DNA of 32,000 bases from positions 31,669 through 63,668 of the forward strand of contig NZ_JAYKGW010000042.1 in the NCBI RefSeq assembly GCF_035285525.1, in the 5' to 3' direction. A program made the position numbers and the translations under genes. Positions 11,074 through 27,828 of the stretch are shown piece after piece (position 1 is the first letter of the stretch; each line of letters begins with the position of its first letter). This DNA is from Okeania sp. GTDB taxonomy: Bacteria; Cyanobacteriota; Cyanobacteriia; Cyanobacteriales; Microcoleaceae. A model generated the notes under the pieces. The model did not search any database. It was not told the DNA's origin and saw only the letters and a program-made list of their open reading frames with translations.

Positions 11074-12510
11074 CTAATTAGATTTATTAGCTTTAAGTTG
11101 TAATTGTCTGGTTTCTTCTAAAATTTTCTCCACATCTTCTTCACTCATCCCCATCACATAATTAATCTTTACTTCTTCAAGAAATGCTGATATTAAAGAT
11201 TGAAGTTCATCTAAAGTATTTTCTTGTTGTAATTCTTGACTTAGTTCTTTGCTGAAGTGTTGAACTAATTCTTCAGATAATTTTGTTCCCTCTGGATCTG
11301 CCATAGCAACTTTAACTGTTTCATAAGCATTTTGGGGTCCCTCGGTGACAATATTAGATAATTCTTTGACTAATCTTTCTGATAATTGCTTGGCTAAATT
11401 TTCTACTCCTGGTATTTGCTGAAGTGTCTGAAAAGCAGGTAATTCTTCAATGATTTTTTCTACGTTATAACGAATTAGAGCTTCTATCTCTGATTTAATT
11501 TCTGGTATTACTTTACAGACTGTTATTTCTACTAATTTATTGGTAATCGCTTCAATTTCATTAATGTTATTTAGATCAATATAAGTTCGCTGTTGAGAGG
11601 AAAATATTCGCTTGGCTAATTCACCACTTGCTACATCTTTTTGTAGCTGATTAATTATTTGTATTATGACTACTTCTGTTAATTCTTGAGCAATGGAAGC
11701 TAGAAAACCTCGGCTAGCTTGTGCCCTGATTGTTTCTAGGTCTATAATTTGAGCATTATTGAGGCGAATAGTAACAGGAATTATCCGCGATAATTGTAGA
11801 AATGGTAATAGTAAAAAAATATCATACCAACGCCATAGCATTGCTTCTTGCCAACTAACGCTAGGATAACGGCGACTAATTAAAAATGTTCTACCTAAAA
11901 ATTCTAAGCCAAAGATAATAATAAAAGGGAAGTCAATTATGCCGAAATAATCAGTTAGTCCTCCACTTTCCCCAATCCCTCGATAATAATTTTTGACAAT
12001 CAATGGTTGAATTTCTTTTTCAAACCATTCACTTTCTTTATTCCATCCATTTGCTATTAAGTATTCTGCACTCCAAAAAGTTGTAAATGATCCTTTTGCA
12101 GAATCTTCTGGATTAGGAATTTTATCTCTAATGCGATTTTTTATTTTTTCTAAAGAACCACTTTTATTAGCAACTGCAAAAGGATTTTGATTGATCATGT
12201 CTATAGAAAGTTCTTGTAGTTCTTCTAGTTGTTTTTTTACTTCTAAAGAATCAAAACCTGTAGAAATTTTTGTTTTTAATTCTGTAAAACTATTTAGATA
12301 TTTTTCTGTATCTCGATTAGGTCTAATTCCTTTGATAGGGTCGTATATTTTTGTGAGACTAGGGACATAATCAAAATAGAAATCTCGGAAAGTAATATAG
12401 CTGATATTAAATAGCACTAGGGTAAAATTTACTAGGGCTAAAAGTGCCATTATTTTTTCCAGTATTGGTACTTTGCGATTTTTCCGGCGGATATGTCTTG
12501 TAGTTACCAT
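11074..12510 (-). CDS. conserved-looking membrane protein with ion-channel S3/S4-like helices, family unknown
   Basis: 478-aa ORF with a basic N-terminus plus a TM helix. Two further helices follow (IIDFPFIIIFG; WRWYDIFLLLPF...SRIIPVTIRL), then a long acidic helical C-terminus. The stop TAG overlaps a (TATTCCC) repeat. Confidence 0.8.
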   Translation of the reverse strand: MVTTRHIRRKNRKVPILEKIMALLALVNFTLVLFNISYITFRDFYFDYVPSLTKIYDPIKGIRPNRDTEKYLNSFTELKTKISTGFDSLEVKKQLEELQELSIDMINQNPFAVANKSGSLEKIKNRIRDKIPNPEDSAKGSFTTFWSAEYLIANGWNKESEWFEKEIQPLIVKNYYRGIGESGGLTDYFGIIDFPFIIIFGLEFLGRTFLISRRYPSVSWQEAMLWRWYDIFLLLPFLQLSRIIPVTIRLNNAQIIDLETIRAQASRGFLASIAQELTEVVIIQIINQLQKDVASGELAKRIFSSQQRTYIDLNNINEIEAITNKLVEITVCKVIPEIKSEIEALIRYNVEKIIEELPAFQTLQQIPGVENLAKQLSERLVKELSNIVTEGPQNAYETVKVAMADPEGTKLSEELVQHFSKELSQELQQENTLDELQSLISAFLEEVKINYVMGMSEEDVEKILEETRQLQLKANKSN

Positions 12511-15351: not shown

Positions 15352-15738
15352 TTATGAAAAATCTACAGGAAAAATTTTACACATCATATAACTTGGTAAA
15401 AATGTTTGATTTTCATCAACACAATCTATTAATATTTCTGATTCATTTTCCTCTTTAAGTGGATTTACACAAATAGCAAGTTTTCCTACTCCTGGCATTA
15501 ATGAAATTATTCGATTTTTGAGACTTTCAATATCTTGCTCTAAGTCATTTGCATCTGATATTGAGGGAGTAATAATGAAAAAAGTTTTGACTCCAACTGA
15601 ATCTGGGGCAAAGCCAAAACTACATTCGTTTAATAATGATTGAGTGGAAAAATTTAAAGTTTCATAGAAGCGATTAATTAGTGCTTGATAGAAAGATTCA
15701 CTTAGATAATGATCGTCGAAAGTTGGTTGAGATAACAT
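15352..15738 (-). CDS. hypothetical protein (128 aa)
   Basis: The track ORF starts at TTG 15753, but the ATG at 15738 has GAGGA 8 nt upstream, so it is preferred. No recognisable motif. This is the only ORF in a 2.6-kb repeat-filled gap. Confidence 0.5.
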   Translation of the reverse strand: MLSQPTFDDHYLSESFYQALINRFYETLNFSTQSLLNECSFGFAPDSVGVKTFFIITPSISDANDLEQDIESLKNRIISLMPGVGKLAICVNPLKEENESEILIDCVDENQTFLPSYMMCKIFPVDFS

Positions 15739-16084
15739 AATAAGTTTCCTCAAATAATATTTTTTGTATACTTGCTAATTTTAACATCCATTAAGATTAT
15801 ATAATTATCATTATCTGATTTTAGTTATCTAAATCACAAAACCATAAGATAATTATTACTAATCTAATTGTCAGCAAACAGCTATTGGCACTTAGCAGTG
15901 AGTATTTAGCTTTTGAACTCAATAACTTTAATTGTAAGCAAACAGCTATTAGAAATCAGCAGTCAGTATTTAGTTTGGGTTGTAGTAGTTACTACAGAGT
16001 TAAACTAGAGCAAACAGGAGAAAAATATCAGCAATTTGTTTGATATTTCCAGCTAAATATTATTGTTAGAGATACTGAGTAACT

Positions 16085-19592: not shown

Positions 19593-20036
19593 ATGTCTAA
19601 AAAGAAAGTTTTAATCGTAGATGACTGCGAAATAATCAGAAAACAATGTTCTCGTATTCTCATCAAGATGGGATTTAATGTTAAATTAGCAAGTAATGGT
19701 TTAGAAGCAATAGAACAAGTAAAACTATACCATCCTGATGTAGTAATTTTAGATATTATTATGCCAGAAATGAATGGATATCAAGTTTGTCGTCAAATCA
19801 AATCTCATCCTCAAACTAAGAATATATCTGTAATTTTTTGTTCTAGTAAATGTTCAGAAGTTGATATTTATTGGGGTATGAAACAAGGTGCTGATGGCTA
19901 TATTAGTAAGCCTGTAAAAAAGGATAAGTTAATTACATTAATGTCAAGATTTAGTGGTTATAAAAATGAGATTAAAGAATATAGCGATCAGTCTCTTTAT
20001 CAGGAAGGACGTATTCAGATTTTACCTAGTGTTTAG
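19593..20036 (+). CDS. single-domain response regulator (CheY-like receiver)
   Basis: 147 aa. It has the acidic pair D10/D11, the phospho-acceptor D54 (VVILDIIMPEMNG), S84 and K106 (YISKP). No output domain. Confidence 0.9.
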   Translation: MSKKKVLIVDDCEIIRKQCSRILIKMGFNVKLASNGLEAIEQVKLYHPDVVILDIIMPEMNGYQVCRQIKSHPQTKNISVIFCSSKCSEVDIYWGMKQGADGYISKPVKKDKLITLMSRFSGYKNEIKEYSDQSLYQEGRIQILPSV

Positions 20037-20074
20037 CAAGTAGTCGTCCCCAATAAATTTCTGATTAGAAAATA

Positions 20075-20980
20075 CTAAAAACCTAAATTTTGAGAAATTA
20101 CTTCTAATAGAAATAAACCTGCTACAGAATTTCCTTGTTGGTTAAGATGAGGACTATAGGAAACAATTACTCCTGTTCCAGGAACTATTCCCAAAACAAT
20201 TCCACTAACACTAGATTTGGTGGGAATTTTTATTTTTATAGCATAATTAATTGAGGCTTCATATAAACCACAAGTAGTCATTAATTTTTGCACAGTTAAA
20301 CAGTATTTTTGGCATTCAGGATGAGGTGCATTTACTAATAACATTCCGAGATTAGCTACATCGAATATCTTAGCAGATAAACAACAGATTTGATTATAAG
20401 TATCTAAACTAATTTCTGCTTCTTTTATACAGCCAGATTCTACTAATTTTTGAGCTATAGCTTGATTCTTTTGATTAGGTAAAGAACGAACCGAAGCCAA
20501 CATATTTTCATCTAAAAATAATTGACAATTTCCATAGTTATTCAACCAACAACAAAAATTTTCACATCTTTCTATAGCAGTATTTCCTGGTAATAAAGAT
20601 GATAAAGCGATCGCTCCACTATTAATCATCGGATTTCGCGGCCATCCCTCATCAGTTTCTAATTGTTCTAAAGAATTAAAAGGTTTTTCTGAAGGTTCTT
20701 GACCAACTTTTTTAAATACAAATTCATTGCCAAATTTAGATAATAAATAGAATAACAGAAATGGTTTAATCACACTCATTAAAGGAACTTTGGTTTCCAC
20801 ATCCCCTAATGATATAATTTGATTATCAATACTTTGCAAGACAACTGCAAAATTATTAGAGTTAGCTTCAGCAAGTAAAGGGATATAAGTAGGTAGTGTA
20901 CCTGATTTACTTTTAGCTAATGTTTGTTTTACCCATTTTGTTAATTCCTGTTCGTTAATTTCTGATAAACTTTTAAACAT
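20075..20980 (-). CDS. glsA: glutaminase
   Basis: ATG 20980 (MFKSLSEINE) is preferred; the 22 upstream codons to TTG 21046 read through an (AAGGTAG)n repeat. Motifs are SVIKPF (Ser-x-x-Lys), NPMINSGAIA and PTKSSVSG. Confidence 0.9.
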   Translation of the reverse strand: MFKSLSEINEQELTKWVKQTLAKSKSGTLPTYIPLLAEANSNNFAVVLQSIDNQIISLGDVETKVPLMSVIKPFLLFYLLSKFGNEFVFKKVGQEPSEKPFNSLEQLETDEGWPRNPMINSGAIALSSLLPGNTAIERCENFCCWLNNYGNCQLFLDENMLASVRSLPNQKNQAIAQKLVESGCIKEAEISLDTYNQICCLSAKIFDVANLGMLLVNAPHPECQKYCLTVQKLMTTCGLYEASINYAIKIKIPTKSSVSGIVLGIVPGTGVIVSYSPHLNQQGNSVAGLFLLEVISQNLGF

Positions 20981-20991
20981 AAAAATAGTAA

Positions 20992-21033
20992 AAGGAATAA
21001 GGAATAAGGTAGAAGGTAGAAGGTATAAGGTAG
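20992..21033. repeat. heptamer tandem repeat (AAGG[A/T]A[T/G]) x6 in the glutaminase leader
   Basis: Direct reading: aaggaat aaggaat aaggtag aaggtag aaggtat aaggtag. Confidence 0.9.
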
Positions 21034-21166
21034 AAACTTTGAACAAAAAGGAATAAATGATAGAAATAACTATCTAAAATTAATTGAAGCAGCTATTTTA
21101 ATCATTCAGCCATCAGCTATAAGCTAACAGCTTTGAATTAAGTGGTTTTCCAAAATAGATTTCCTA

Positions 21167-21487
21167 GTTGAAAGAAATAGGGAAAGGGGAACAGGAAGAA
21201 ATAATTGATAATTTATCAACTAAGATTCGATATTTATAATCTAATATTTCAATAATTAATAATTAACAATTAATAATTACCAAAAAATTAGGTATAAAGC
21301 CTCCCCTGGTTCGGGGATGAAAAAACACTTAACTAAGTATTTCAAGTCTCCGACTTTAGTCAAAGGTTCACTCTCTACTATCTACTGATAACTGAAGTTG
21401 AAATAGGGAAAAGGGAACAGGAAGAAATAATTGATAATTTATCAACTAAGATTGGATATTTATAATCTAATATTTCAATAATTAATA
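21167..21487 (+). repeat. ~92-bp direct repeat pair, period 230 bp, flanking two-hairpin copy B
   Basis: gttgaaa(gaa)atagggaaa.gggaacaggaagaaataattgataatttatcaactaagatt.gatatttataatctaatatttcaataattaata occurs at 21167-21261 and 21397-21487. Confidence 0.8.
21280..21396 (+). repeat. two-hairpin element, type 1, copy B
   Basis: It reads ccaaaaaattaggtataaagcct, the perfect hairpin cccc-tggttc-gggg, atgaaaaaacacttaactaagtatttcaag, a decayed hairpin 2, then ttcactctctact...ctgataactgaag. Confidence 0.8.
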
Positions 21488-21488
21488 G

Positions 21489-21580
21489 TTACCCCTTCTT
21501 ATAAAGAAGAGGATTGACTAACAAAACTCTTTTTTCTTTTTCCTCCATGAATGGAGGGGCTTTATACCTTAATTTTTTAG
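21489..21580 (-). repeat. two-hairpin element, type 2, copy F
   Basis: The reverse complement reads taaaaaattaaggtataaagccc, the perfect hairpin cctcca-ttca-tggagg, an A-rich stretch, then the hairpin cctcttctt-tat-aagaagggg. Confidence 0.65.
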
Positions 21581-21771
21581 TAATTAATTTTGCTTATGAA
21601 ATTATCAAATTAATTTTGCATAAGCACTTATTAACTTATGATAATACCAAAAAAGGCATTAGCTTCTCAAGAGAATTAAAATTTATGTTTGCGTTTGCGT
21701 AGCATCCCATAGGGAAGCATTCCCCAGGAAATGCTGAATAATTAAACTCATTTAATACCTATTTATTTTCC

Positions 21772-22452
21772 ATGAAAAAACTAATAGTAATTACAGGGGT
21801 AAGTAAAGGTTTAGGTAGAGCAATGACTGATGAATTTATTAATTTAGGTCATACCGTTATAGGTTGCGCTCGTTCTCAATCTACTATAGAAAATTTAACT
21901 AATAAATATCCTCATTCACATCAGTTTAGTTGTGTCAATGTAGCAGATGAAAATTCTGTGCAAGAGTGGGCAAGTAAAACATTAACTAATTATTCACCGC
22001 CAGATTTATTAATCAATAATGCAGGTATAATTAATCAACCAGCACATATTTGGGAAGTTGATAGTGAAGAATTTTCCCAATTAATTGATATTAATATTAA
22101 AGGTGTGGTAAATGTGATACGTCATTTTGTCCCAGCTATGATTTCTAGGAGAAGTGGTATTATTGTTAATTTTAGTTCTGGGTGGGGACGTTCTACTTCT
22201 CCACAAGTTGGACCATATTGTGCTTCTAAGTGGGCAATAGAAGGTTTAACTCGTGCTTTAGCTCAGGAGTTACCGTTAGGAATGGCTGCTATTCCTCTTA
22301 ATCCAGGAATTATTCATACTGATATGTTGGATATTTGTTTTGGAGAGGATGCAAAGTCTTTTTCCTCTGTTAAGTCTTGGGTAAAAAGAGCTGTTCCTTT
22401 TTTGTTGAAATTAAAACCCCAGGATAATGGGATACCTTTGACTGTATCTTAA
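21772..22452 (+). CDS. short-chain dehydrogenase/reductase (SDR)
   Basis: 226 aa with the TGVSKGLG cofactor motif, NNAG and the catalytic YCASK (YxxxK). Confidence 0.9.
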   Translation: MKKLIVITGVSKGLGRAMTDEFINLGHTVIGCARSQSTIENLTNKYPHSHQFSCVNVADENSVQEWASKTLTNYSPPDLLINNAGIINQPAHIWEVDSEEFSQLIDINIKGVVNVIRHFVPAMISRRSGIIVNFSSGWGRSTSPQVGPYCASKWAIEGLTRALAQELPLGMAAIPLNPGIIHTDMLDICFGEDAKSFSSVKSWVKRAVPFLLKLKPQDNGIPLTVS

Positions 22453-22547
22453 AAACCTGATAGTCAGAGTAAAAATTAGTATATTTTTTCAAAAATCTCT
22501 TACCAATTACTTATTTCTGACTTTTTTGTGAATTCTGGTTTTTAAAA

Positions 22548-22629
22548 TGCGGATGAAGGGAATCGAACCCCCACTTCCGAAGAAACTAGAACCTAAATCT
22601 AGCGCGTCTACCAATTCCGCCACATCCGC
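22548..22629 (-). tRNA. tRNA-Leu (anticodon UAG)
   Basis: 82-nt cloverleaf read by hand. Acceptor GCGGATG/CATCCGC; D arm GCG-GAATTGGTAGA-CGC; anticodon stem CTAGA/TCTAG with loop TTTAGGT. It has a long variable arm with a TTCG loop and a T loop TTCGATT (the T stem needs two G-U pairs). Discriminator is A and CCA is not encoded. Confidence 0.85.
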
Positions 22630-22851
22630 ATAATTTTAATATAACACACAAATCAAAATTTTTTGTATTTATTCTCAATTTTTTTTTAGATAGAGTTGTG
22701 AAAAAGTCTTGTTGCTATTTTTAGGGATTATTTAGGGCTTGCTGATTAAATTATAGAAGTATTGACATTCTCAAGTTTTGGCCTTCTTAAGTCGTGATTG
22801 ATCAGGAACCGTGTACATCTTCTACAACTCCTTATTCCTCATTGACTCTTC

Positions 22852-22997: not shown

Positions 22998-23025
22998 TAC
23001 TCCCTACTCCCTACTTCCTACTCCC
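22998..23025. repeat. heptamer tandem repeat (TACTCCC) x4 overlapping the cyclase stop codon
   Basis: Direct reading. On the minus strand it encodes ...GVGSRE followed by the stop. Confidence 0.9.
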
Positions 23026-26000
23026 TTTCCTTGCAAAATATAAGCCTTCATTTTTCCCTTACCCTTTATATCAATGAATCCTCGTTCTGTAAATAAAAAT
23101 TTGTGCTGCAAAATCCGATAAGTATTCTCTGTAACTTGGATTAATCCTGGTATGCCATGAGATTCCATGCGACTAGCAATATTTACGGTATCACCCCATA
23201 GGTCGTAGATAAATTTCTTACGTCCAATTACACCAGCTACTACGGGGCCAGTATTAATACCAATCCGAATCCGAAAATCTCGTTGATGCTCATTAGTAAA
23301 ATGTTCTACTTCTTTTAATATATCTAGAGCCATTAAAGCGATCGCTTCGGTATGATTTTTCATTGGTTGAGGCAACCCACCGACAACCATATAAGCATCG
23401 CCAATAGTTTTAATTTTCTCTAAATTATACTTTTCTGCTAATAAATCAAACCTGGAAAAAATCTCATTTAACCAATAAACTAATTGCTCAGGATGAACGG
23501 AACTTGCTAACTCAGTAAAGCCTACTAAGTCTGCAAATAAAACTGTAACTTCGGCAAAGTCTTCTGCAATAATTTCTTGATTTTCTTTTAATTTATCAGC
23601 AATAGGTTTAGGGAAAATATTTAATAGTAATTTTTCTGACTTTTCCTGTTCTAAAAGTAAAGCTTGTTCTGTTTTTTTTCTTTCAGTTATATCACGACAA
23701 AGAGCTAAAATTAAATTACTATTACCTGCTTGTAATAAACCCCGACGTATTTCTACTGGAAAAGTTTTACCATTTTGGCATTTGTGTATTTTTTGTATAG
23801 TTATCGGTAAGCCAGGAATTAATTCTTGCCACTTTTGCTCAATTTCTTCTGATAAATTTACCTCAATATCTTGTATATAAAGATTCAATAATTCTGCACG
23901 AGTATATCCTAAACTTTGAGAAGCAATTTGATTGACATCAATAATTTTTCCTTGCAAATCGTGAATAATAAAAGCATCTGCTGCTTGTTCCATAATAGCT
24001 CTAAATTTTTCCTCACTTTCTCGCAAAGCTGCTTGTGCTAATTTCCTTTCAGTTATGTCTCGTATGGCAGTTACTTTATGTTGATTTCCATGATAAAAAA
24101 ATTTTTTTGCTTCTATTTCTATGGGAAAAGTAGAGCGGTCTTTTCTAAGTCCAAATACTTCATAAGGTTTCTCATATCCAGAACTCAAATTTTGCCGTAC
24201 TAAGTCTTGATATTTTGAGTCTATTAATTCTAATCCATTCATGCCTATCATTTCTGATAGTTCATATTGAAACATTTGCAAAGCTGCACTATTTGCATCA
24301 ACTATTTCTCCTAGTTCGTGAATAATAATTGCCTCAAAAGTTGCTGTAGATAAACTCCTAAATCTTTTTTCGTTTTCTCGAAGTTTTACTTCTGCTTTTT
24401 TTCTTTGAGAAATGTCTCTAAAAGTTCCGGTGTAAAATTTTATTTGATTTAATTTGGCTTCTCTAATAGCAATTTCCATAGGAAATAAAGAACCATCTTT
24501 GCGAATACCAACTAACTCGTAAAGATTTCCTGTCTCAGCAATATTAGATATCAAAAATTCTATATAATATTTTTTTTGATTGCTTTTTTTTTCTGCCTCT
24601 AAATCTGTTTGAATATCTGCTGAATTTGACTCTGCTAAATGAAGAAAATTTGGAAAATAAGACTGCCAGTTTTCCGGTTTAATATCCTCATTATTAAATC
24701 TATAATAAACATCTCCAATTTCTTGATTTGGAGAGAATATAAAACTTGGATAAACCCAGAAGTTTAATGGTTCTAATATTGATTTATTTACAGAAGGAAA
24801 TAAATCATGACCGTTGATTTTTTCCATTGTTAATGGATTAATAGTAAAATCAAGTATTTTAACAACAGGGATTCCTACTAATTCTTCAGACTTATAACCA
24901 AATATTTTCTCAACGCTAGGATTTGCACTAATAATTTCTAGTCCTGATTTACTAAAAGTTATAATTCCATCTTTAGCAACCTTAATAATAGCATCATTTC
25001 TGGCAGTAACTTCTTCCAAAGCATCCATAACCTGATTATATCTTTCTGCAATTTGACCTACTTCTGTAAAAGGTTCTACAGGCACTCTTAAACTTAAATC
25101 TTGGTTACGAGCTTGAGAATTCATTACTTCAAAAAAATCTAATATTTCGGTTTTAGCATTGTGTTCAGAAACATTTAAACCAATATACTCATCTTCTCTA
25201 GAAACTCGGAATAAAAAAAACTTATTTGTAATTAATAAAATTGGATATACAACACAAAATCCTAATATAAAAGCAGTACAAATTCCTAATAATTGAACAG
25301 TTAATTGTTGACTAAAACTAAGACCAGTATCTAATACTTCCCTCTTAGCAAATAAAGCTACTGCTAAAGTACCCCAAATACCCGCACCAAGATGAACTGG
25401 AATAGCTCCGACAGCATCATCAATCTGAATTTTTTCTAAAGCGTGCCCGACCACAATACTAACTATGCTACCAATAGCACCAATAACCACCGCAGAAAAA
25501 GCTGTAACTGCATGACAACTAGCTGTAATAGCAACGAGACCAGCTAAAGTTCCATTAATCAGTAGTTCAGCAGTGGGGATGCCAACAATATACCAACTAA
25601 TCCCAAGAGTAACCATCATTCCTGCTACACTAGCAAGAACTGTATTGACAATAATATCAGCTACTTGTTCATTCAAGACTAGGGTGCTGCCACCATTAAA
25701 CCCAAACCAACCAAACCAAATTAACATAGCTCCCAAAACTGATAGAGGCAAATTAGAACCATGAATTTTTTGCGGTGGGCGATCAGGAGGAAATCTACCA
25801 GTACGAGGTCCAATAACGAATAAAGCGGCCAAAGAAACCCAACCCCCAATACTATGAACAACTGTGGAACCTGCGAAGTCAATAAAACCACGTTGTCCTA
25901 ACCAACCTGTTGATATACCTGCATTAACTCCATTCCAAACCCAATGACCAAATATGGGGTAAATAAAACCGGAAACTAGGAAGGTAATAAATAGATAGGC

Positions 26001-26615
26001 CGCAAATTTCATTCGTTCAGCTACAGCGCCAGAAACAATAGTTGTTGCTGTGCCACAGAACATGACTTGGAATAGAAATAAAGCGATATCAAAAGGTTGC
26101 AGTTCAGTTCCCAAGAAGAAATTGGTATGGCCAATTAATCCACTATAAGATGCCCCAAACATAAAGGCAAACCCAAAAGCCCAAAAACAGGCAACTGAAA
26201 CACCAAAATCGGTTAAGTTTTTAATAGCAACGTTAATACTATTTTTTGACCTAGTAAGTCCGGATTCTAAACACATAAATCCAGGCTGCATGAGAAATAC
26301 TAATCCAGAGCAAAGTAATATCCACAAAATATCAATTGTTTGATATGTAAGTTCAGATTCTGAGGTTAATATATTATTGTTAAATTTGGATTTATTTTTT
26401 CTTTTAATAACAGTTTGGGGATTATAGTATAAATTTGTGGATTTAATTAAATATTCTTCTGGTGAAAGTTGAGATTTTTTCCATTCTTTGACTTCTTTTG
26501 TATTAGTTATTTGCTGATAATTATTTGTATGTTTATTGATTGGCGACCCTTGTAAAATGGTTAATGTTAGAGTCAGAAAGAATATAATAATTCCTAAAAT
26601 ATATTTTCGAGGCAT
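23004..26615 (-). CDS. ammonium transporter (Amt) domain - 3x PAS - class III adenylate cyclase fusion protein
   Basis: 1203-aa ORF. Amt hallmarks are at aa ~93-468: FIDFAGSTVVHSIGGW, WFGWFGFNGGS, AIPVHLGAGIWG. Three PAS-like modules span aa ~536-985, each ending in DI(S/T)(Q/E)RK. A cyclase homology domain spans aa ~1018-1195: VLFADLVGFT, KIKTIGDAYM, FIYDLWGDTVNIASRMES. The last 7 codons and the stop are encoded by a (GGGAGTA) repeat. Confidence 0.93.
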   Translation of the reverse strand: MPRKYILGIIIFFLTLTLTILQGSPINKHTNNYQQITNTKEVKEWKKSQLSPEEYLIKSTNLYYNPQTVIKRKNKSKFNNNILTSESELTYQTIDILWILLCSGLVFLMQPGFMCLESGLTRSKNSINVAIKNLTDFGVSVACFWAFGFAFMFGASYSGLIGHTNFFLGTELQPFDIALFLFQVMFCGTATTIVSGAVAERMKFAAYLFITFLVSGFIYPIFGHWVWNGVNAGISTGWLGQRGFIDFAGSTVVHSIGGWVSLAALFVIGPRTGRFPPDRPPQKIHGSNLPLSVLGAMLIWFGWFGFNGGSTLVLNEQVADIIVNTVLASVAGMMVTLGISWYIVGIPTAELLINGTLAGLVAITASCHAVTAFSAVVIGAIGSIVSIVVGHALEKIQIDDAVGAIPVHLGAGIWGTLAVALFAKREVLDTGLSFSQQLTVQLLGICTAFILGFCVVYPILLITNKFFLFRVSREDEYIGLNVSEHNAKTEILDFFEVMNSQARNQDLSLRVPVEPFTEVGQIAERYNQVMDALEEVTARNDAIIKVAKDGIITFSKSGLEIISANPSVEKIFGYKSEELVGIPVVKILDFTINPLTMEKINGHDLFPSVNKSILEPLNFWVYPSFIFSPNQEIGDVYYRFNNEDIKPENWQSYFPNFLHLAESNSADIQTDLEAEKKSNQKKYYIEFLISNIAETGNLYELVGIRKDGSLFPMEIAIREAKLNQIKFYTGTFRDISQRKKAEVKLRENEKRFRSLSTATFEAIIIHELGEIVDANSAALQMFQYELSEMIGMNGLELIDSKYQDLVRQNLSSGYEKPYEVFGLRKDRSTFPIEIEAKKFFYHGNQHKVTAIRDITERKLAQAALRESEEKFRAIMEQAADAFIIHDLQGKIIDVNQIASQSLGYTRAELLNLYIQDIEVNLSEEIEQKWQELIPGLPITIQKIHKCQNGKTFPVEIRRGLLQAGNSNLILALCRDITERKKTEQALLLEQEKSEKLLLNIFPKPIADKLKENQEIIAEDFAEVTVLFADLVGFTELASSVHPEQLVYWLNEIFSRFDLLAEKYNLEKIKTIGDAYMVVGGLPQPMKNHTEAIALMALDILKEVEHFTNEHQRDFRIRIGINTGPVVAGVIGRKKFIYDLWGDTVNIASRMESHGIPGLIQVTENTYRILQHKFLFTERGFIDIKGKGKMKAYILQGKGVGSRE

Positions 26616-27306
26616 AGATACGGTTCCCGAAAAATCGGGGCTTTTTTTAGATATTTTTTAAGTTAATTTTGTGGTCAGGATTCAGCGGTTAGTTATTAGG
26701 TATCAGTTACTCAAAAAGTAGAGATAAAAAGTTGGAATTAGTGTGGAGAATACACAAGTCCTGATATTGAAGTAAGTTGGATAAATTCTCTGAGGATAAA
26801 GTTGATTATGTATCCGATATTTTTTACTTCAATGGTAATAGAGAATATTGTTCCCAAAAGTAAAGATCGCCAGAGATTAAATGATTAAGAATAATGTATA
26901 TAATATGTGATTTTACTTATGATGGGTCTAGTTTTTATGATGTAAAACTCTTGGTTCAAAGAGGTTTATATTACAAAATAAAGTGCTGTAGATTCAGCAC
27001 TTTCCGTTATTATGAGAGATACAATCGGGGGCAAGATGCGCCCACTACAAAACTTTCACTATTTACCCTATACCTCATTTGTCCGAAATATGCTGTAAAA
27101 CCTACTTATCAATATATCATATTGTTAGTCGATATTTCTCACTTCAAAAGTAATATCAGACATTTTTTTAGGAAGAAATTTAATTAGAGGCTGAGTTATT
27201 AAGAATAAAGTTTATAGTTCCTATGTAGTATGTAATTTCCCTTAAGAATATCATATCTGTTAGTATTGATTGTGTAAAAGCCGACAAAACAGTTAACTGA
27301 TAACTG

Positions 27307-27501
27307 AAAAAGGGGGGGCGGGTTTTTTTCAGTTGATGAACTTTTCTTAAATCCCTGGTGAAACCCGCTGAGGGGGCGGGTTTTTTTCAGTTGATGAACC
27401 TTTCTTAAATCCCTGGTGAAACCCGCCCCTACATTCCCTGGTGAAACCCGCCCCTACAGTCCCTGGGGAAACCCGCCCCTACATTCCCTGGGGAAACCCG
27501 C
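27307..27501 (+). repeat. GC-rich composite tandem array (2 x 58 bp, then 3.6 x 25 bp) sharing the core CCCTGG(T/G)GAAACCCGC
   Basis: The core lies at 27353, 27411, 27436, 27461 and 27486. gggggcgggttttttt lies at 27314 and 27372. The units abut with no spacers. Confidence 0.9.
27361..27387 (+). terminator. terminator-shaped hairpin inside the GC-rich array
   Basis: aaacccgc-tgagggg-gcgggttt is followed by TTTT. No convincing plus-strand gene lies upstream, so its function is doubtful. Confidence 0.4.
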
Positions 27502-27562
27502 TTAGTTATTTCAGGGCGATCACTACTTTTGGGAATCAAAGATAACTGATAACTGATAACTG

Positions 27563-27604
27563 AAAAGCAATCAGCGATTTTAATACTTTTCGCTGATTGC
27601 TTTT
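27563..27604 (-). terminator. strong hairpin, candidate terminator for the peptidoglycan-binding gene
   Basis: aaaagcaatcagcga / tcgctgattgctttt form a perfect 15-bp stem with a 12-nt loop and flanking A/T runs. It lies 225 bp downstream of the stop at 27829. Confidence 0.6.
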
Positions 27605-27828
27605 CATGCCATTCTTATGTAAAGCTGCACAGAATTATTAACTTTTTAATTTATCTATAATTTTATCTGCAGTTATTTATAATAATCATTTATTCTATGC
27701 AACTTCATATTCAATTGGTATTATTAAAGTTGACATATTTTGACTGGAATTATGGTCTGAAAATATCAAAAAATCAACTTCAGTATTTTTCTAATTTAAG
27801 CCGGAAATGCTAATAACTGAAATGACTT

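What the first reader, a model, noticed from the sequence alone, without database searches (positions are those of the whole stretch)
23004..26615. Amt domain fused to three PAS modules and a class III adenylate cyclase: candidate ammonium-to-cAMP transceptor
One uninterrupted 1203-aa ORF carries all three parts.
- **Amt domain (aa ~93-468):** it keeps the pore hallmarks visible in the translation. These are FIDFAGSTVVHSIGGW (first pore His), WFGWFGFNGGS and AIPVHLGAGIWG (second pore His), so substrate binding or conduction looks intact.
- **PAS region (aa ~536-985):** three PAS-like modules are each closed by a DI(S/T)(Q/E)RK linker.
- **Cyclase domain (aa ~1018-1195):** it has both metal Asp residues (D1029, D1073), transition-state N1145/R1149, and the K1069/D1138 pair. 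In characterised class III enzymes that pair specifies ATP rather than GTP.

Amt domains fused to signalling outputs are known to act as sensors, for example the Amt-histidine kinase Ks-Amt5 of Kuenenia. I am not aware of a characterised Amt-cyclase. A direct ammonium-to-cAMP link would be physiologically meaningful in a cyanobacterium. Amt proteins are trimers and class III cyclases are dimers, so the oligomeric logic is itself an open question.
Basis: partly seen in the sequence, partly recalled or inferred. Interest (0 to 1): 0.72.

Follow-up and report, generated by a model that had tools for sequence, protein, structure and literature searches.

The report
Ammonium receptor fused to adenylate cyclase
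This cyanobacterial gene joins an ammonium-transporter-like membrane domain of the already known non-transporting "ammonium receptor" type, through three PAS domains, to a cAMP-making enzyme; it probably converts outside ammonium into a cAMP signal, an output not yet studied for this receptor class.

Summary
Window 23004..26615 (minus strand) is one intact 1203-aa ORF with Pfam Ammonium_transp (E 2.5e-120), three PAS domains and Guanylate_cyc (E 3e-66). It is 100% identical to a protein annotated only as "ammonium transporter [Okeania sp.]".

The Amt domain is not a generic transporter. By sequence and predicted fold it is closest to the two characterised ammonium receptors (AmR), Sd-Amt1 and Ks-Amt5. 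It carries the residues that form their lateral N1/N2 ammonium-binding site and constricted exit, which canonical Amts lack. "Receptor" is therefore more likely than "transceptor".

Two parts were missed: a HAMP-like helix-loop-helix after the Amt domain, and a cyclase-transducer helix before the catalytic domain. The cyclase is class IIIa, has all six catalytic residues and is predicted to be ATP-specific.

The fusion is not unique. Full-length orthologues occur in Okeania, Dapis, Trichodesmium and Phormidium. PAS-less Amt-HAMP-cyclase forms occur in Leptospira, Turneriella, Parabeggiatoa and others.

I found no paper on an Amt-class III cyclase. I rate it a new output variant of a known receptor class. 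Function is inferred by homology only.

The parts
23004..26615 (-). Whole ORF, 1203 aa plus stop; identical to 'ammonium transporter [Okeania sp.]' (P0001)
26535..26615 (-). aa 1-27: N-terminal hydrophobic segment (MPRKYILGIIIFFLTLTLTILQG). It is either a signal peptide or an extra membrane anchor.
   Evidence: Hydropathy peak at aa 3-27. The motif is conserved in orthologues. Cleavage was not tested.
26346..26534 (-). aa 28-90: variable, low-complexity extension, presumably periplasmic. It is absent from the Leptospira forms.
   Evidence: No Pfam hit. dN/dS about 0.7. Alignment.
25152..26345 (-). aa 91-488: Amt module with 11 TM helices. Pore residues: F186, W227, D246, H254, F306, S310, H408. 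AmR N1/N2 and switch residues: Q110, F113, E117, K132, N133, D136, T192, S195, Y207. Exit-constricting residue: N354.
24978..25151 (-). aa 489-546: HAMP-like helix-loop-helix (helices about 490-504 and 518-546), with the motif RVPVEPFTEVGQIAERYNQVMDALEE
   Evidence: Pfam HAMP E 0.02, 15.7 bits, below the cutoff of 25. Colinear with Sd-Amt1 residues 384-449 and with a poly-HAMP kinase. AF2 helices at pLDDT 57-74. F516, G520, I522, Y526 and N527 are invariant in 93 fused Amts.
24396..24977 (-). aa 547-740: PAS1, split by an insertion and ending in DISQRK
24525..24800 (-). aa 606-697: insertion inside PAS1. The first part is predicted disordered (about aa 606-673) and a long helix follows (about aa 669-695). 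It is under weak constraint.
   Evidence: AF2 pLDDT below 50 for aa 606-673. dN/dS 0.6-0.7 over aa 606-697.
24036..24395 (-). aa 741-860: linker helix plus PAS2, ending in DITERK
23676..24035 (-). aa 861-980: linker helix plus PAS3, ending in DITERK. This is the best-scoring PAS domain.
23565..23675 (-). aa 981-1017: signalling helix plus cyclase-transducer-element-like segment (EKSEKLLLNIFPKPIADKLKEN)
   Evidence: Aligns to the pre-catalytic helices of mammalian AC9 and AC8. AF2 helices at 977-1000 and 1003-1010. dN/dS 0.06-0.25.
23025..23564 (-). aa 1018-1197: class IIIa cyclase homology domain. Metal ligands D1029 and D1073; adenine-specifying K1069 and D1138; transition-state N1145 and R1149.

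Best explanation
The gene encodes a membrane ammonium receptor of the AmR class, whose output is a class IIIa adenylate cyclase.

Proposed mechanism, with shown and inferred steps marked:
1. NH4+ from outside the cell is selected by the normal Amt filter: W227/S310, the Phe gate F186/F306 and the twin His H254/H408. The residues are shown to be present. Their role is inferred from family knowledge.
2. Instead of leaving through the cytoplasmic funnel, which N354 narrows, the ion is diverted to a lateral two-ion site. That site is formed by Q110, E117, N133, D136, T192 and S195, and F113 takes the place of the channel-wall Tyr of canonical Amts and opens access to it. The identity of these residues with Sd-Amt1 is shown. 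Binding without transport is inferred.
3. Occupancy flips the E117-K132 salt bridge and Y207, and shifts the C-terminal end of the Amt module (inferred from Sd-Amt1).
4. This acts on the HAMP-like helix-loop-helix, so that two of the three cytoplasmic arms of the trimer pair up. The signal runs down the helical PAS-PAS-PAS spine and the cyclase-transducer helix.
5. Two catalytic domains then form the head-to-tail homodimer, with two symmetric active sites, that makes cAMP from ATP.

By analogy with Sd-Amt1 and Ks-Amt5, ammonium most likely raises activity. The three PAS domains, which are absent from the Leptospira versions, most likely add cytoplasmic inputs of unknown nature that gate or tune the response. 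The protein is probably not a relevant route of ammonium uptake.
For: Architecture and catalytic residues:
- The domain architecture and the six catalytic residues are confirmed.
- D, K, D, D, N and R are conserved in 26 of 26 full-length cyanobacterial orthologues. D1029, K1069 and D1073 are kept in all 51 PAS-less Amt-cyclases, and all six positions are invariant in their alignment.

The Amt domain is of the receptor type:
- Its best sequence matches in the PDB are Sd-Amt1 (E 1e-117) and Ks-Amt5 (3e-90). Af-Amt1 scores 4e-60 and E. coli AmtB about 1e-33.
- The predicted fold is closest to Sd-Amt1 in the ON state (8qj4), with TM 0.95, rmsd 1.5 A and 47% identity.
- All Sd-Amt1 N1/N2 and switch residues named in PMC11152129 are identical here: Q22, F25, E29, K44, N45, D48, T104, S107, Y119 and N269.
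- These positions are invariant or at least 90% conserved in 93 Amts fused to signalling domains.
- A canonical AmtB that sits next to glnK in Leptospira has I/L/Y/H/S/A/A/S at the discriminating positions. Af-Amt1 has V/V/Y/S/A/S at the six positions read from the alignment (Q110, F113, E117, N133, T192, N354).

Linker and spine:
- The linker is colinear with the Sd-Amt1 HAMP region and with a poly-HAMP kinase.
- AF2 shows a helix-loop-helix, three PAS folds joined by helices, and a helical lead-in to the cyclase.

Other support:
- Minimal Amt-HAMP-cyclase proteins without PAS exist, with the same signature. The Amt-to-cyclase coupling therefore does not need PAS.
- Purifying selection acts on the Amt, HAMP, CTE and cyclase parts.
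Against: - No experiment exists for any Amt-class III cyclase. Ligand, direction of regulation and cAMP production are all inferred by homology.
- The HAMP assignment is below Pfam's threshold, and its AF2 confidence is only moderate.
- Pflueger et al. state that the structure alone cannot exclude residual transport in Sd-Amt1.
- PAS ligands are unknown, and only generic FixL-like similarity was found.
- The gene neighbourhood gives no functional support. There is no glnK or nitrogen operon, no NtcA box upstream, and synteny with glutaminase holds only within Okeania.
Confidence: 0.7

Rival explanations
1. It is a true transceptor. The Amt module still conducts ammonium into the cell at a physiologically relevant rate, and signalling is coupled to the transport cycle, as proposed for yeast Mep2.
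For: - The complete conduction pathway is conserved: W227, S310, F186, F306, D246, H254 and H408.
- Pflueger et al. concede that structure alone cannot rule out transport by Sd-Amt1.
Against: - N354 replaces the small Ser of conducting Amts at the exit.
- E117 and F113 replace the channel-wall Tyr.
- Both characterised proteins with this signature show charge displacement, not translocation (PMC11152129; PMC5764959).
- Leptospira keeps a separate canonical amtB-glnK pair close to its Amt-cyclase gene, which suggests a division of labour.
Confidence: 0.15
2. The Amt module is only a trimeric membrane anchor. The real inputs are cytoplasmic signals such as redox state, light, O2 or metabolites, read by the three PAS domains.
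For: - There are three PAS domains, two of them under clear purifying selection.
- PAS domains are common primary sensors of cyclases.
- Many class III cyclases have membrane anchors with no known ligand.
Against: - The N1/N2 ligands are invariant in 93 fused Amts with cyclase, phosphatase or kinase outputs. That makes sense only if ammonium binding is under selection.
- PAS-less Amt-HAMP-cyclase proteins exist in Leptospira and others.
- No cofactor motif of the LOV or haem type was detected.
Confidence: 0.1
3. Ammonium binding inhibits the cyclase rather than activating it, so that cAMP reports the absence of ammonium. The wiring is the same but the sign is opposite.
For: - The sign cannot be read from sequence.
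- HAMP and PAS relays can invert signals.
- Ks-Amt5 phosphorylation rises at low ammonium and falls again at higher concentrations.
Against: Sd-Amt1, the closest characterised relative, is activated by ammonium.
Confidence: 0.3

Closest known systems
Sd-Amt1 of Shewanella denitrificans (AmR; PDB 8qj3, 8qj4, 8qpf; PMC11152129)
   Same: - It is the closest relative of the Amt module: phmmer E 1e-117, and foldseek 47% identity with TM 0.95.
- The N1/N2 ligands, the K/E/Y switch and the exit Asn are identical.
- The HAMP-like linker is colinear.
- The output enzyme likewise has to dimerise beneath a trimeric sensor.
   Different: - Its output is a GGDEF diguanylate cyclase making c-di-GMP. Here the output is a class IIIa cyclase making cAMP.
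- Sd-Amt1 has no PAS domains and no N-terminal extension.
Ks-Amt5 of 'Candidatus Kuenenia stuttgartiensis' (PDB 6eu6; PMC5764959)
   Same: It is a sensor Amt with an N1/N2 site, fused at its C-terminus to a transducer. It is the second-best PDB match (E 3e-90).
   Different: - Its output is a histidine kinase and it has no HAMP domain.
- It has Thr at the position of N354, and Arg and Asn at the positions of K132 and Y207.
Mycobacterial membrane adenylate cyclases Rv1625c/Cya and mammalian tmACs (class IIIa; PDB 7yz9, 4p2f, 1yk9, 6r3q, 8buz)
   Same: - They are the best matches of the catalytic domain, at E 1e-52 to 1e-74.
- The six catalytic residues and the K/D adenine pair are shared.
- The helix preceding the catalytic domain aligns.
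- The Rv1625c/Cya type works as a homodimer.
   Different: Their membrane parts are 6-TM bundles with no established ligand and are unrelated to Amt. They have no HAMP or PAS relay.
Amt-HAMP-cyclase proteins of Leptospira, Turneriella, Parabeggiatoa and others (uncharacterised; e.g. P0031 of L. kobayashii)
   Same: They have the same Amt signature, the same HAMP motif (PVEPFTEVGQIAERYN is identical) and the same class IIIa cyclase. Identity over the shared parts is 52-58%.
   Different: About 680 aa, with no PAS domains and no N-terminal extension. In L. kobayashii the gene lies 3 genes from amtB-glnK.
Yeast and Candida Mep2 ammonium transceptor (PDB 5aex, 5af1)
   Same: An Amt-family protein used for ammonium signalling. 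It is a distant match, at about E 1e-34.
   Different: Mep2 transports ammonium. It has no fused enzyme and lacks the N1/N2 signature. It signals through separate partners.

Membership tests
Amt/Mep/Rh ammonium transporter superfamily (PF00909, TIGR00836) | Profile match above the curated threshold over the whole 11-TM core | tested here: met
   Pfam scores 402 bits against a cutoff of 23.2, covering profile positions 1-397 of 399. TIGR00836 scores 415 bits against a cutoff of 343. AF2 predicts 11 long helices over aa 91-466.
Amt/Mep/Rh ammonium transporter superfamily (PF00909, TIGR00836) | Trp/Ser vestibule, Phe gate and twin-His | tested here: met
   W227, S310, F186, F306, H254 and H408 align to Sd-Amt1 W139, S225, F98, F221, H169 and H323.
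AmR, sensor Amt (Ks-Amt5 / Sd-Amt1 class) | Amt module fused at its C-terminus to a cytoplasmic transducer | tested here: met
   One ORF with the order Amt, HAMP-like linker, three PAS domains, cyclase.
AmR, sensor Amt (Ks-Amt5 / Sd-Amt1 class) | N1/N2 signature: Gln, Phe, Glu, Lys, Asn, Asp, Thr, Ser and Tyr at the positions of Sd-Amt1 residues 22, 25, 29, 44, 45, 48, 104, 107 and 119 | tested here: met
   Q110, F113, E117, K132, N133, D136, T192, S195 and Y207 are all identical to Sd-Amt1. Canonical Amts differ at eight discriminating positions: seven of these nine (not S195 or Y207) plus exit residue N354.
AmR, sensor Amt (Ks-Amt5 / Sd-Amt1 class) | Constricted cytoplasmic exit (Sd-Amt1 N269 in place of the Ser of conducting Amts) | tested here: met
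   N354 is present. Af-Amt1 and the Leptospira AmtB have Ser. The position is Asn in 90 of 93 fused Amts. The geometry of the model was not inspected.
AmR, sensor Amt (Ks-Amt5 / Sd-Amt1 class) | Binds NH4+ without net translocation, and NH4+ changes the output activity | not testable with these tools
   This needs SSM electrophysiology and enzyme assays.
Class III nucleotidyl cyclase, subclass IIIa, adenylate-specific | Cyclase homology domain with two metal Asp, a transition-state Asn and Arg, and a Lys/Asp substrate pair | tested here: met
   PF00211 scores 223 bits. D1029, D1073, N1145, R1149, K1069 and D1138 align to the corresponding residues of AC9 and AC8 C1/C2.
Class III nucleotidyl cyclase, subclass IIIa, adenylate-specific | Cyclase-transducer-element helix directly N-terminal of the catalytic domain | tested here: met
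   QEKSEKLLLNIFPKPIADKLK aligns with RDQADWLLRNIIPYHVAEQLK of AC9 C2 and with the AC8 equivalent. It is predicted helical. L996-P1002, I1005, A1006, L1009 and K1010 are invariant in orthologues.
Class III nucleotidyl cyclase, subclass IIIa, adenylate-specific | Makes cAMP as a dimer | not testable with these tools
HAMP domain (PF00672) | Profile match above threshold, and a helix-connector-helix able to form a four-helix bundle | tested here: inconclusive
   Pfam gives E 0.02 and 15.7 bits, below the cutoff of 25, and covers only the AS2 half. There is weak colinear similarity to the Sd-Amt1 HAMP region and to a poly-HAMP kinase. AF2 predicts a helix-loop-helix at pLDDT 57-74.
PAS domains | Three PAS folds, with a cofactor or ligand | tested here: inconclusive
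   The three folds are met. No cofactor signature was found, only generic similarity to FixL beta-strands at E 3e-8 or weaker.

The most novel reading that the evidence does not exclude
This would be a direct outside-in ammonium sensor that writes its answer in cAMP. It would give Okeania, Trichodesmium and related marine filamentous cyanobacteria, and independently Leptospira, a route for perceiving external ammonium. That route would not pass through assimilation, 2-oxoglutarate, PII or NtcA. The three PAS domains would make it a coincidence detector that combines external ammonium with internal state.
Probability: 0.5. Interest if true: 0.7.

Novelty: new variant of a known kind. Interest (0 to 1): 0.55.

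Why it matters
Nitrogen sensing in cyanobacteria is understood as internal sensing: 2-oxoglutarate read by PII and NtcA. A receptor that reads external ammonium and answers with cAMP would be a second, faster channel.

It occurs in the Trichodesmium/Okeania lineage, which includes globally important marine N2 fixers. In those organisms ammonium availability decides whether costly nitrogen fixation is worthwhile.

For the signalling field, it would be a class IIIa membrane adenylate cyclase whose membrane domain has a predicted, chemically defined ligand. It would also be a third, independent output type with which to test how a trimeric Amt sensor drives an enzyme that works as a dimer.

The minimal Leptospira versions (about 680 aa) look like tractable test objects. 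All members seen here are annotated simply as "ammonium transporter" or "guanylate cyclase", so genome-based nitrogen budgets may count them as uptake systems by mistake.

Tried and rejected
- **Species distribution.** A scan of genome contigs with P0001 was swamped by the WFGWFGFN pattern.
- **NtcA box.** A GTA-N8-TAC search found 7 sites in the window against 5.9 expected, and none in the upstream intergenic region 26616..27828.
- **Promoters and terminators.** The promoter scan found fewer sites than expected from shuffles. The terminator scan found 6 against 3.0 +/- 2.0 expected, which is not clearly in excess.
- **Functional linkage to the nearby glutaminase.** The linkage is conserved in Okeania SIO2C9 but not in Dapis or Phormidium. 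I read it as genus-level synteny only.
- **PAS cofactor identification by PDB sequence search.** Only generic FixL-like hits were found.
- **Literature.** Ten full-text searches found no paper on an Amt fused to a class III cyclase. Tremblay and Hallenbeck 2009 surveyed Amt fusions and is cited as the source for 'sensor Amts are widespread'. It is not held, so I cannot exclude that it lists this architecture.
- **Artefact.** I considered a frameshift or a chimeric assembly and rejected both, because 26 orthologues from independent assemblies share the architecture.
- **Guanylate cyclase.** Some database names call relatives 'guanylate cyclase'. I rejected this because the K1069/D1138 pair specifies ATP.


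Full report
**1. The observation**

Window 23004..26615 holds a single uninterrupted ORF of 1203 codons on the minus strand, starting with ATG. Profile searches recover all three parts.
- Pfam Ammonium_transp covers aa 97-488 (E 2.5e-120). PAS_9, PAS and PAS_8 match in three stretches. Guanylate_cyc covers aa 1017-1196 (E 3e-66).
- NCBIfam TIGR00836 'amt' scores above its curated cutoff.

The protein is 100% identical to a database entry called only 'ammonium transporter [Okeania sp.]'. The window has 34% G+C and carries ordinary housekeeping neighbours: rimP-nusA-infB, malic enzyme, ArgRS, glutaminase, an SDR, a peptidoglycan-binding protein and an M32 carboxypeptidase.

**2. The ORF is real and under selection**

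Twenty-six full-length orthologues have the same domain order, at 58-80% identity. They come from Okeania, Dapis, Trichodesmium, Microcoleaceae, Phormidium and metagenomes, and they share the same N-terminus.

I computed pairwise dN/dS against the Dapis and Okeania SIO2C9 genes.
- It is 0.06-0.25 for the Amt, HAMP-like, transducer-helix and cyclase parts.
- It is 0.14-0.37 for PAS2 and PAS3.
- It is 0.6-0.7 for the N-terminal extension (aa 1-90) and for an insertion inside PAS1.

**3. What kind of Amt it is**

This is the main refinement to the finding. Against solved structures, the Amt module matches the two characterised ammonium receptors best:

| Structure | E-value |
|---|---|
| Sd-Amt1 (8qj3) | 1e-117 |
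| Ks-Amt5 (6eu6) | 3e-90 |
| Af-Amt1, assimilatory | 4e-60 |
| E. coli AmtB | about 1e-33 |

The AlphaFold2 model has mean pLDDT 80, and above 90 through most of the Amt part. It superposes best on Sd-Amt1 in the ON state, with TM 0.95 and rmsd 1.5 A.

Pflueger et al. 2024 (PMC11152129) define the receptor subclass, AmR, by a lateral two-ion site (N1/N2) below the twin-His. The defining residues are:
- ligands Gln22, Glu29, Asn45, Asp48, Thr104 and Ser107;
- Phe25, which replaces the channel-wall Tyr;
- a Lys44/Tyr119 switch;
- Asn269, which narrows the cytoplasmic exit.

All ten are identical in this protein: Q110, E117, N133, D136, T192, S195, F113, K132, Y207 and N354. They are invariant or at least 90% conserved in 93 Amts fused to cyclase, PP2C/SpoIIE or histidine-kinase outputs.

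As a control, I used the canonical AmtB that sits next to glnK in Leptospira kobayashii. At the eight discriminating positions it has I, L, Y, H, S, A, A and S, while it keeps the pore residues. Af-Amt1 has V, V, Y, S, A and S at the six positions read from the alignment (Q110, F113, E117, N133, T192 and N354).

In both characterised AmRs this signature goes with charge displacement, meaning binding rather than translocation. 'Receptor' is therefore better supported than 'transceptor'. Residual conduction cannot be excluded by sequence.

**4.

Between the Amt module and PAS1 lies a helix-loop-helix at about aa 490-504 and 518-546. It carries the motif RVPVEPFTEVGQIAERYNQVMDAL.
- It scores below threshold for Pfam HAMP (E 0.02, 15.7 bits against a cutoff of 25).
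- It is colinear with the region of Sd-Amt1 that its authors call HAMP, and with a poly-HAMP kinase.
- Its core residues F516, G520, I522, Y526 and N527 are invariant across all 93 fused Amts.
- A home-made HMM of this linker hits 148 of the 150 best representative clusters.

I call it HAMP-like, with membership inconclusive.

Directly before the catalytic domain, the segment EKSEKLLLNIFPKPIADKLK aligns with the pre-catalytic helices of mammalian AC9 and AC8. This is the cyclase-transducer element typical of class IIIa.

The full order is therefore: signal or anchor helix, variable extension, Amt (AmR type), HAMP-like linker, PAS1 (with an insertion of about 90 aa whose first part, about aa 606-673, is predicted disordered), PAS2, PAS3, signalling helix plus CTE, and the class IIIa cyclase.

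**5. The cyclase**

The best PDB matches are mammalian AC9, AC8 and AC5 (both halves) and the mycobacterial Cya/Rv1625c type (E 1e-52 to 1e-74). That places the domain in class IIIa.

All six canonical residues sit in one chain, so a homodimer would have two complete active sites. The K1069/D1138 pair aligns with the adenine-specifying Lys/Asp of AC C2. The six residues are conserved in all 26 full-length orthologues and are invariant in the alignment of the 51 PAS-less Amt-cyclases.

**6. Distribution**

Of the 120 best clusters at 90% identity, 27 have the Amt-PAS-cyclase architecture (P0001-P0028 except the partial P0017); the named ones are all cyanobacterial and 11 carry no source name. 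Another 51 are Amt-HAMP-cyclase of about 680 aa from Leptospira (many species), Turneriella, other Leptospiraceae and Candidatus Parabeggiatoa. The rest are Amt-PAS-SpoIIE or Amt-PAS-histidine kinase.

A profile search of 1.84 billion representatives shows that all of the best 150 clusters at 50% identity are Amts with something fused to them. Nine of them carry a cyclase domain. These include a Pseudomonadota MAG, Spirulina, and a eukaryotic transcript (Artemidia motanka) with two Amt domains and one cyclase domain.

The fusion is thus recurrent and fairly widespread, but it is a minority output of a very large AmR family.

**7. Context**

The gene stands alone. There is no glnK, no nitrogen operon and no NtcA consensus upstream. 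A tRNA-Leu follows it on the same strand. The nearby glutaminase is conserved only within Okeania. In L. kobayashii the minimal Amt-cyclase lies three genes from a canonical amtB-glnK pair. That fits a division of labour between uptake and sensing.

**8. Mechanism**

I distinguish three levels of support.
- *Shown:* the residues and the architecture.
- *Inferred from Sd-Amt1 and Ks-Amt5:* NH4+ passes the selectivity filter and the twin-His and occupies N1/N2. E117 leaves K132, and Y207 and K132 move. The C-terminal end of the Amt module shifts. HAMP-like arms of two of the three protomers pair.
- *Inferred from class IIIa knowledge:* the helical spine and the CTE align two catalytic domains into an active homodimer that converts ATP to cAMP.

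Activation by ammonium is the more likely sign, because Sd-Amt1 is activated. Inversion by the HAMP/PAS relay is possible. The PAS domains are a lineage-specific insertion between the HAMP linker and the CTE and are absent in Leptospira. They probably add cytoplasmic inputs, and I found no cofactor signature.

A published working model exists for it.

**9. Novelty and verdict**

The receptor class has been known since 2018 and 2024. [quoted passage not shown]

Ten full-text searches found no description of an Amt-class III cyclase. The 2009 review that surveyed Amt fusions could not be read.

I rate it a new variant of a known kind. It has a new second-messenger output (cAMP) and, in cyanobacteria, an added triple-PAS relay. 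A specialist would find it plausible rather than astonishing. Its value is that it makes two things directly testable: direct sensing of external ammonium, and a ligand-defined class IIIa membrane cyclase. Interest is 0.55.

Noticed in passing
window 22547..22630 (-): A tRNA-Leu gene (anticodon tag) lies about 370 bp downstream of the Amt-cyclase stop codon on the same strand. It is the only Rfam or ARAGORN hit in the window.
   Followed up: partly
window 19593..22452: A single-domain response regulator (+), glutaminase A (-) and an SDR oxidoreductase (+) lie just downstream of the gene. The same set flanks the orthologue in Okeania SIO2C9, but not in Dapis or Phormidium. A glutaminase releases ammonium, so the proximity is suggestive, but it looks like genus-level synteny.
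   Followed up: partly
window 11074..12510 (-) and 15352..15753 (-): ORFs of 478 aa and 133 aa have no Pfam or NCBIfam match.
   Followed up: no
window 24525..24800 (-), aa 606-697: PAS1 is interrupted by an insertion of about 90 aa. AlphaFold2 leaves its first part (about aa 606-673) disordered (pLDDT below 50) and predicts a long helix after it, and the insertion evolves almost neutrally (dN/dS 0.6-0.7). A few motifs, such as PENWQ and FPxF, are nevertheless conserved in orthologues.
   Followed up: partly
P0131 (eukprot, Artemidia motanka transcriptome), 1825 aa: A eukaryotic protein has two tandem Amt domains followed by one class III cyclase domain. It looks like an independent, differently built Amt-cyclase.
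   Followed up: no
L082 1736..8046 (Leptospira kobayashii AP025028.1): The minimal Amt-HAMP-cyclase gene lies three genes downstream of a canonical amtB-glnK pair. The two Amts differ at the eight discriminating AmR signature positions; S195 and Y207 are the same in both.
   Followed up: yes
P0044, P0047, P0058 and others (Coleofasciculus, Geitlerinemataceae): A sister family in other cyanobacteria has Amt-HAMP-PAS fused to a SpoIIE/PP2C phosphatase (PF07228) instead of a cyclase. Its Amt part is 62-68% identical over the BLASTP local alignment (about 41% of the query). This recalls the Amt-phosphatase fusion reported for SAR11.
   Followed up: no
window 26616..27828: There is an unusually long (1.2 kb) upstream intergenic region. 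It contains a strong terminator-like hairpin at 27360..27384 (+) and a 97-aa ORF with no family match at 26894..27187.
   Followed up: no
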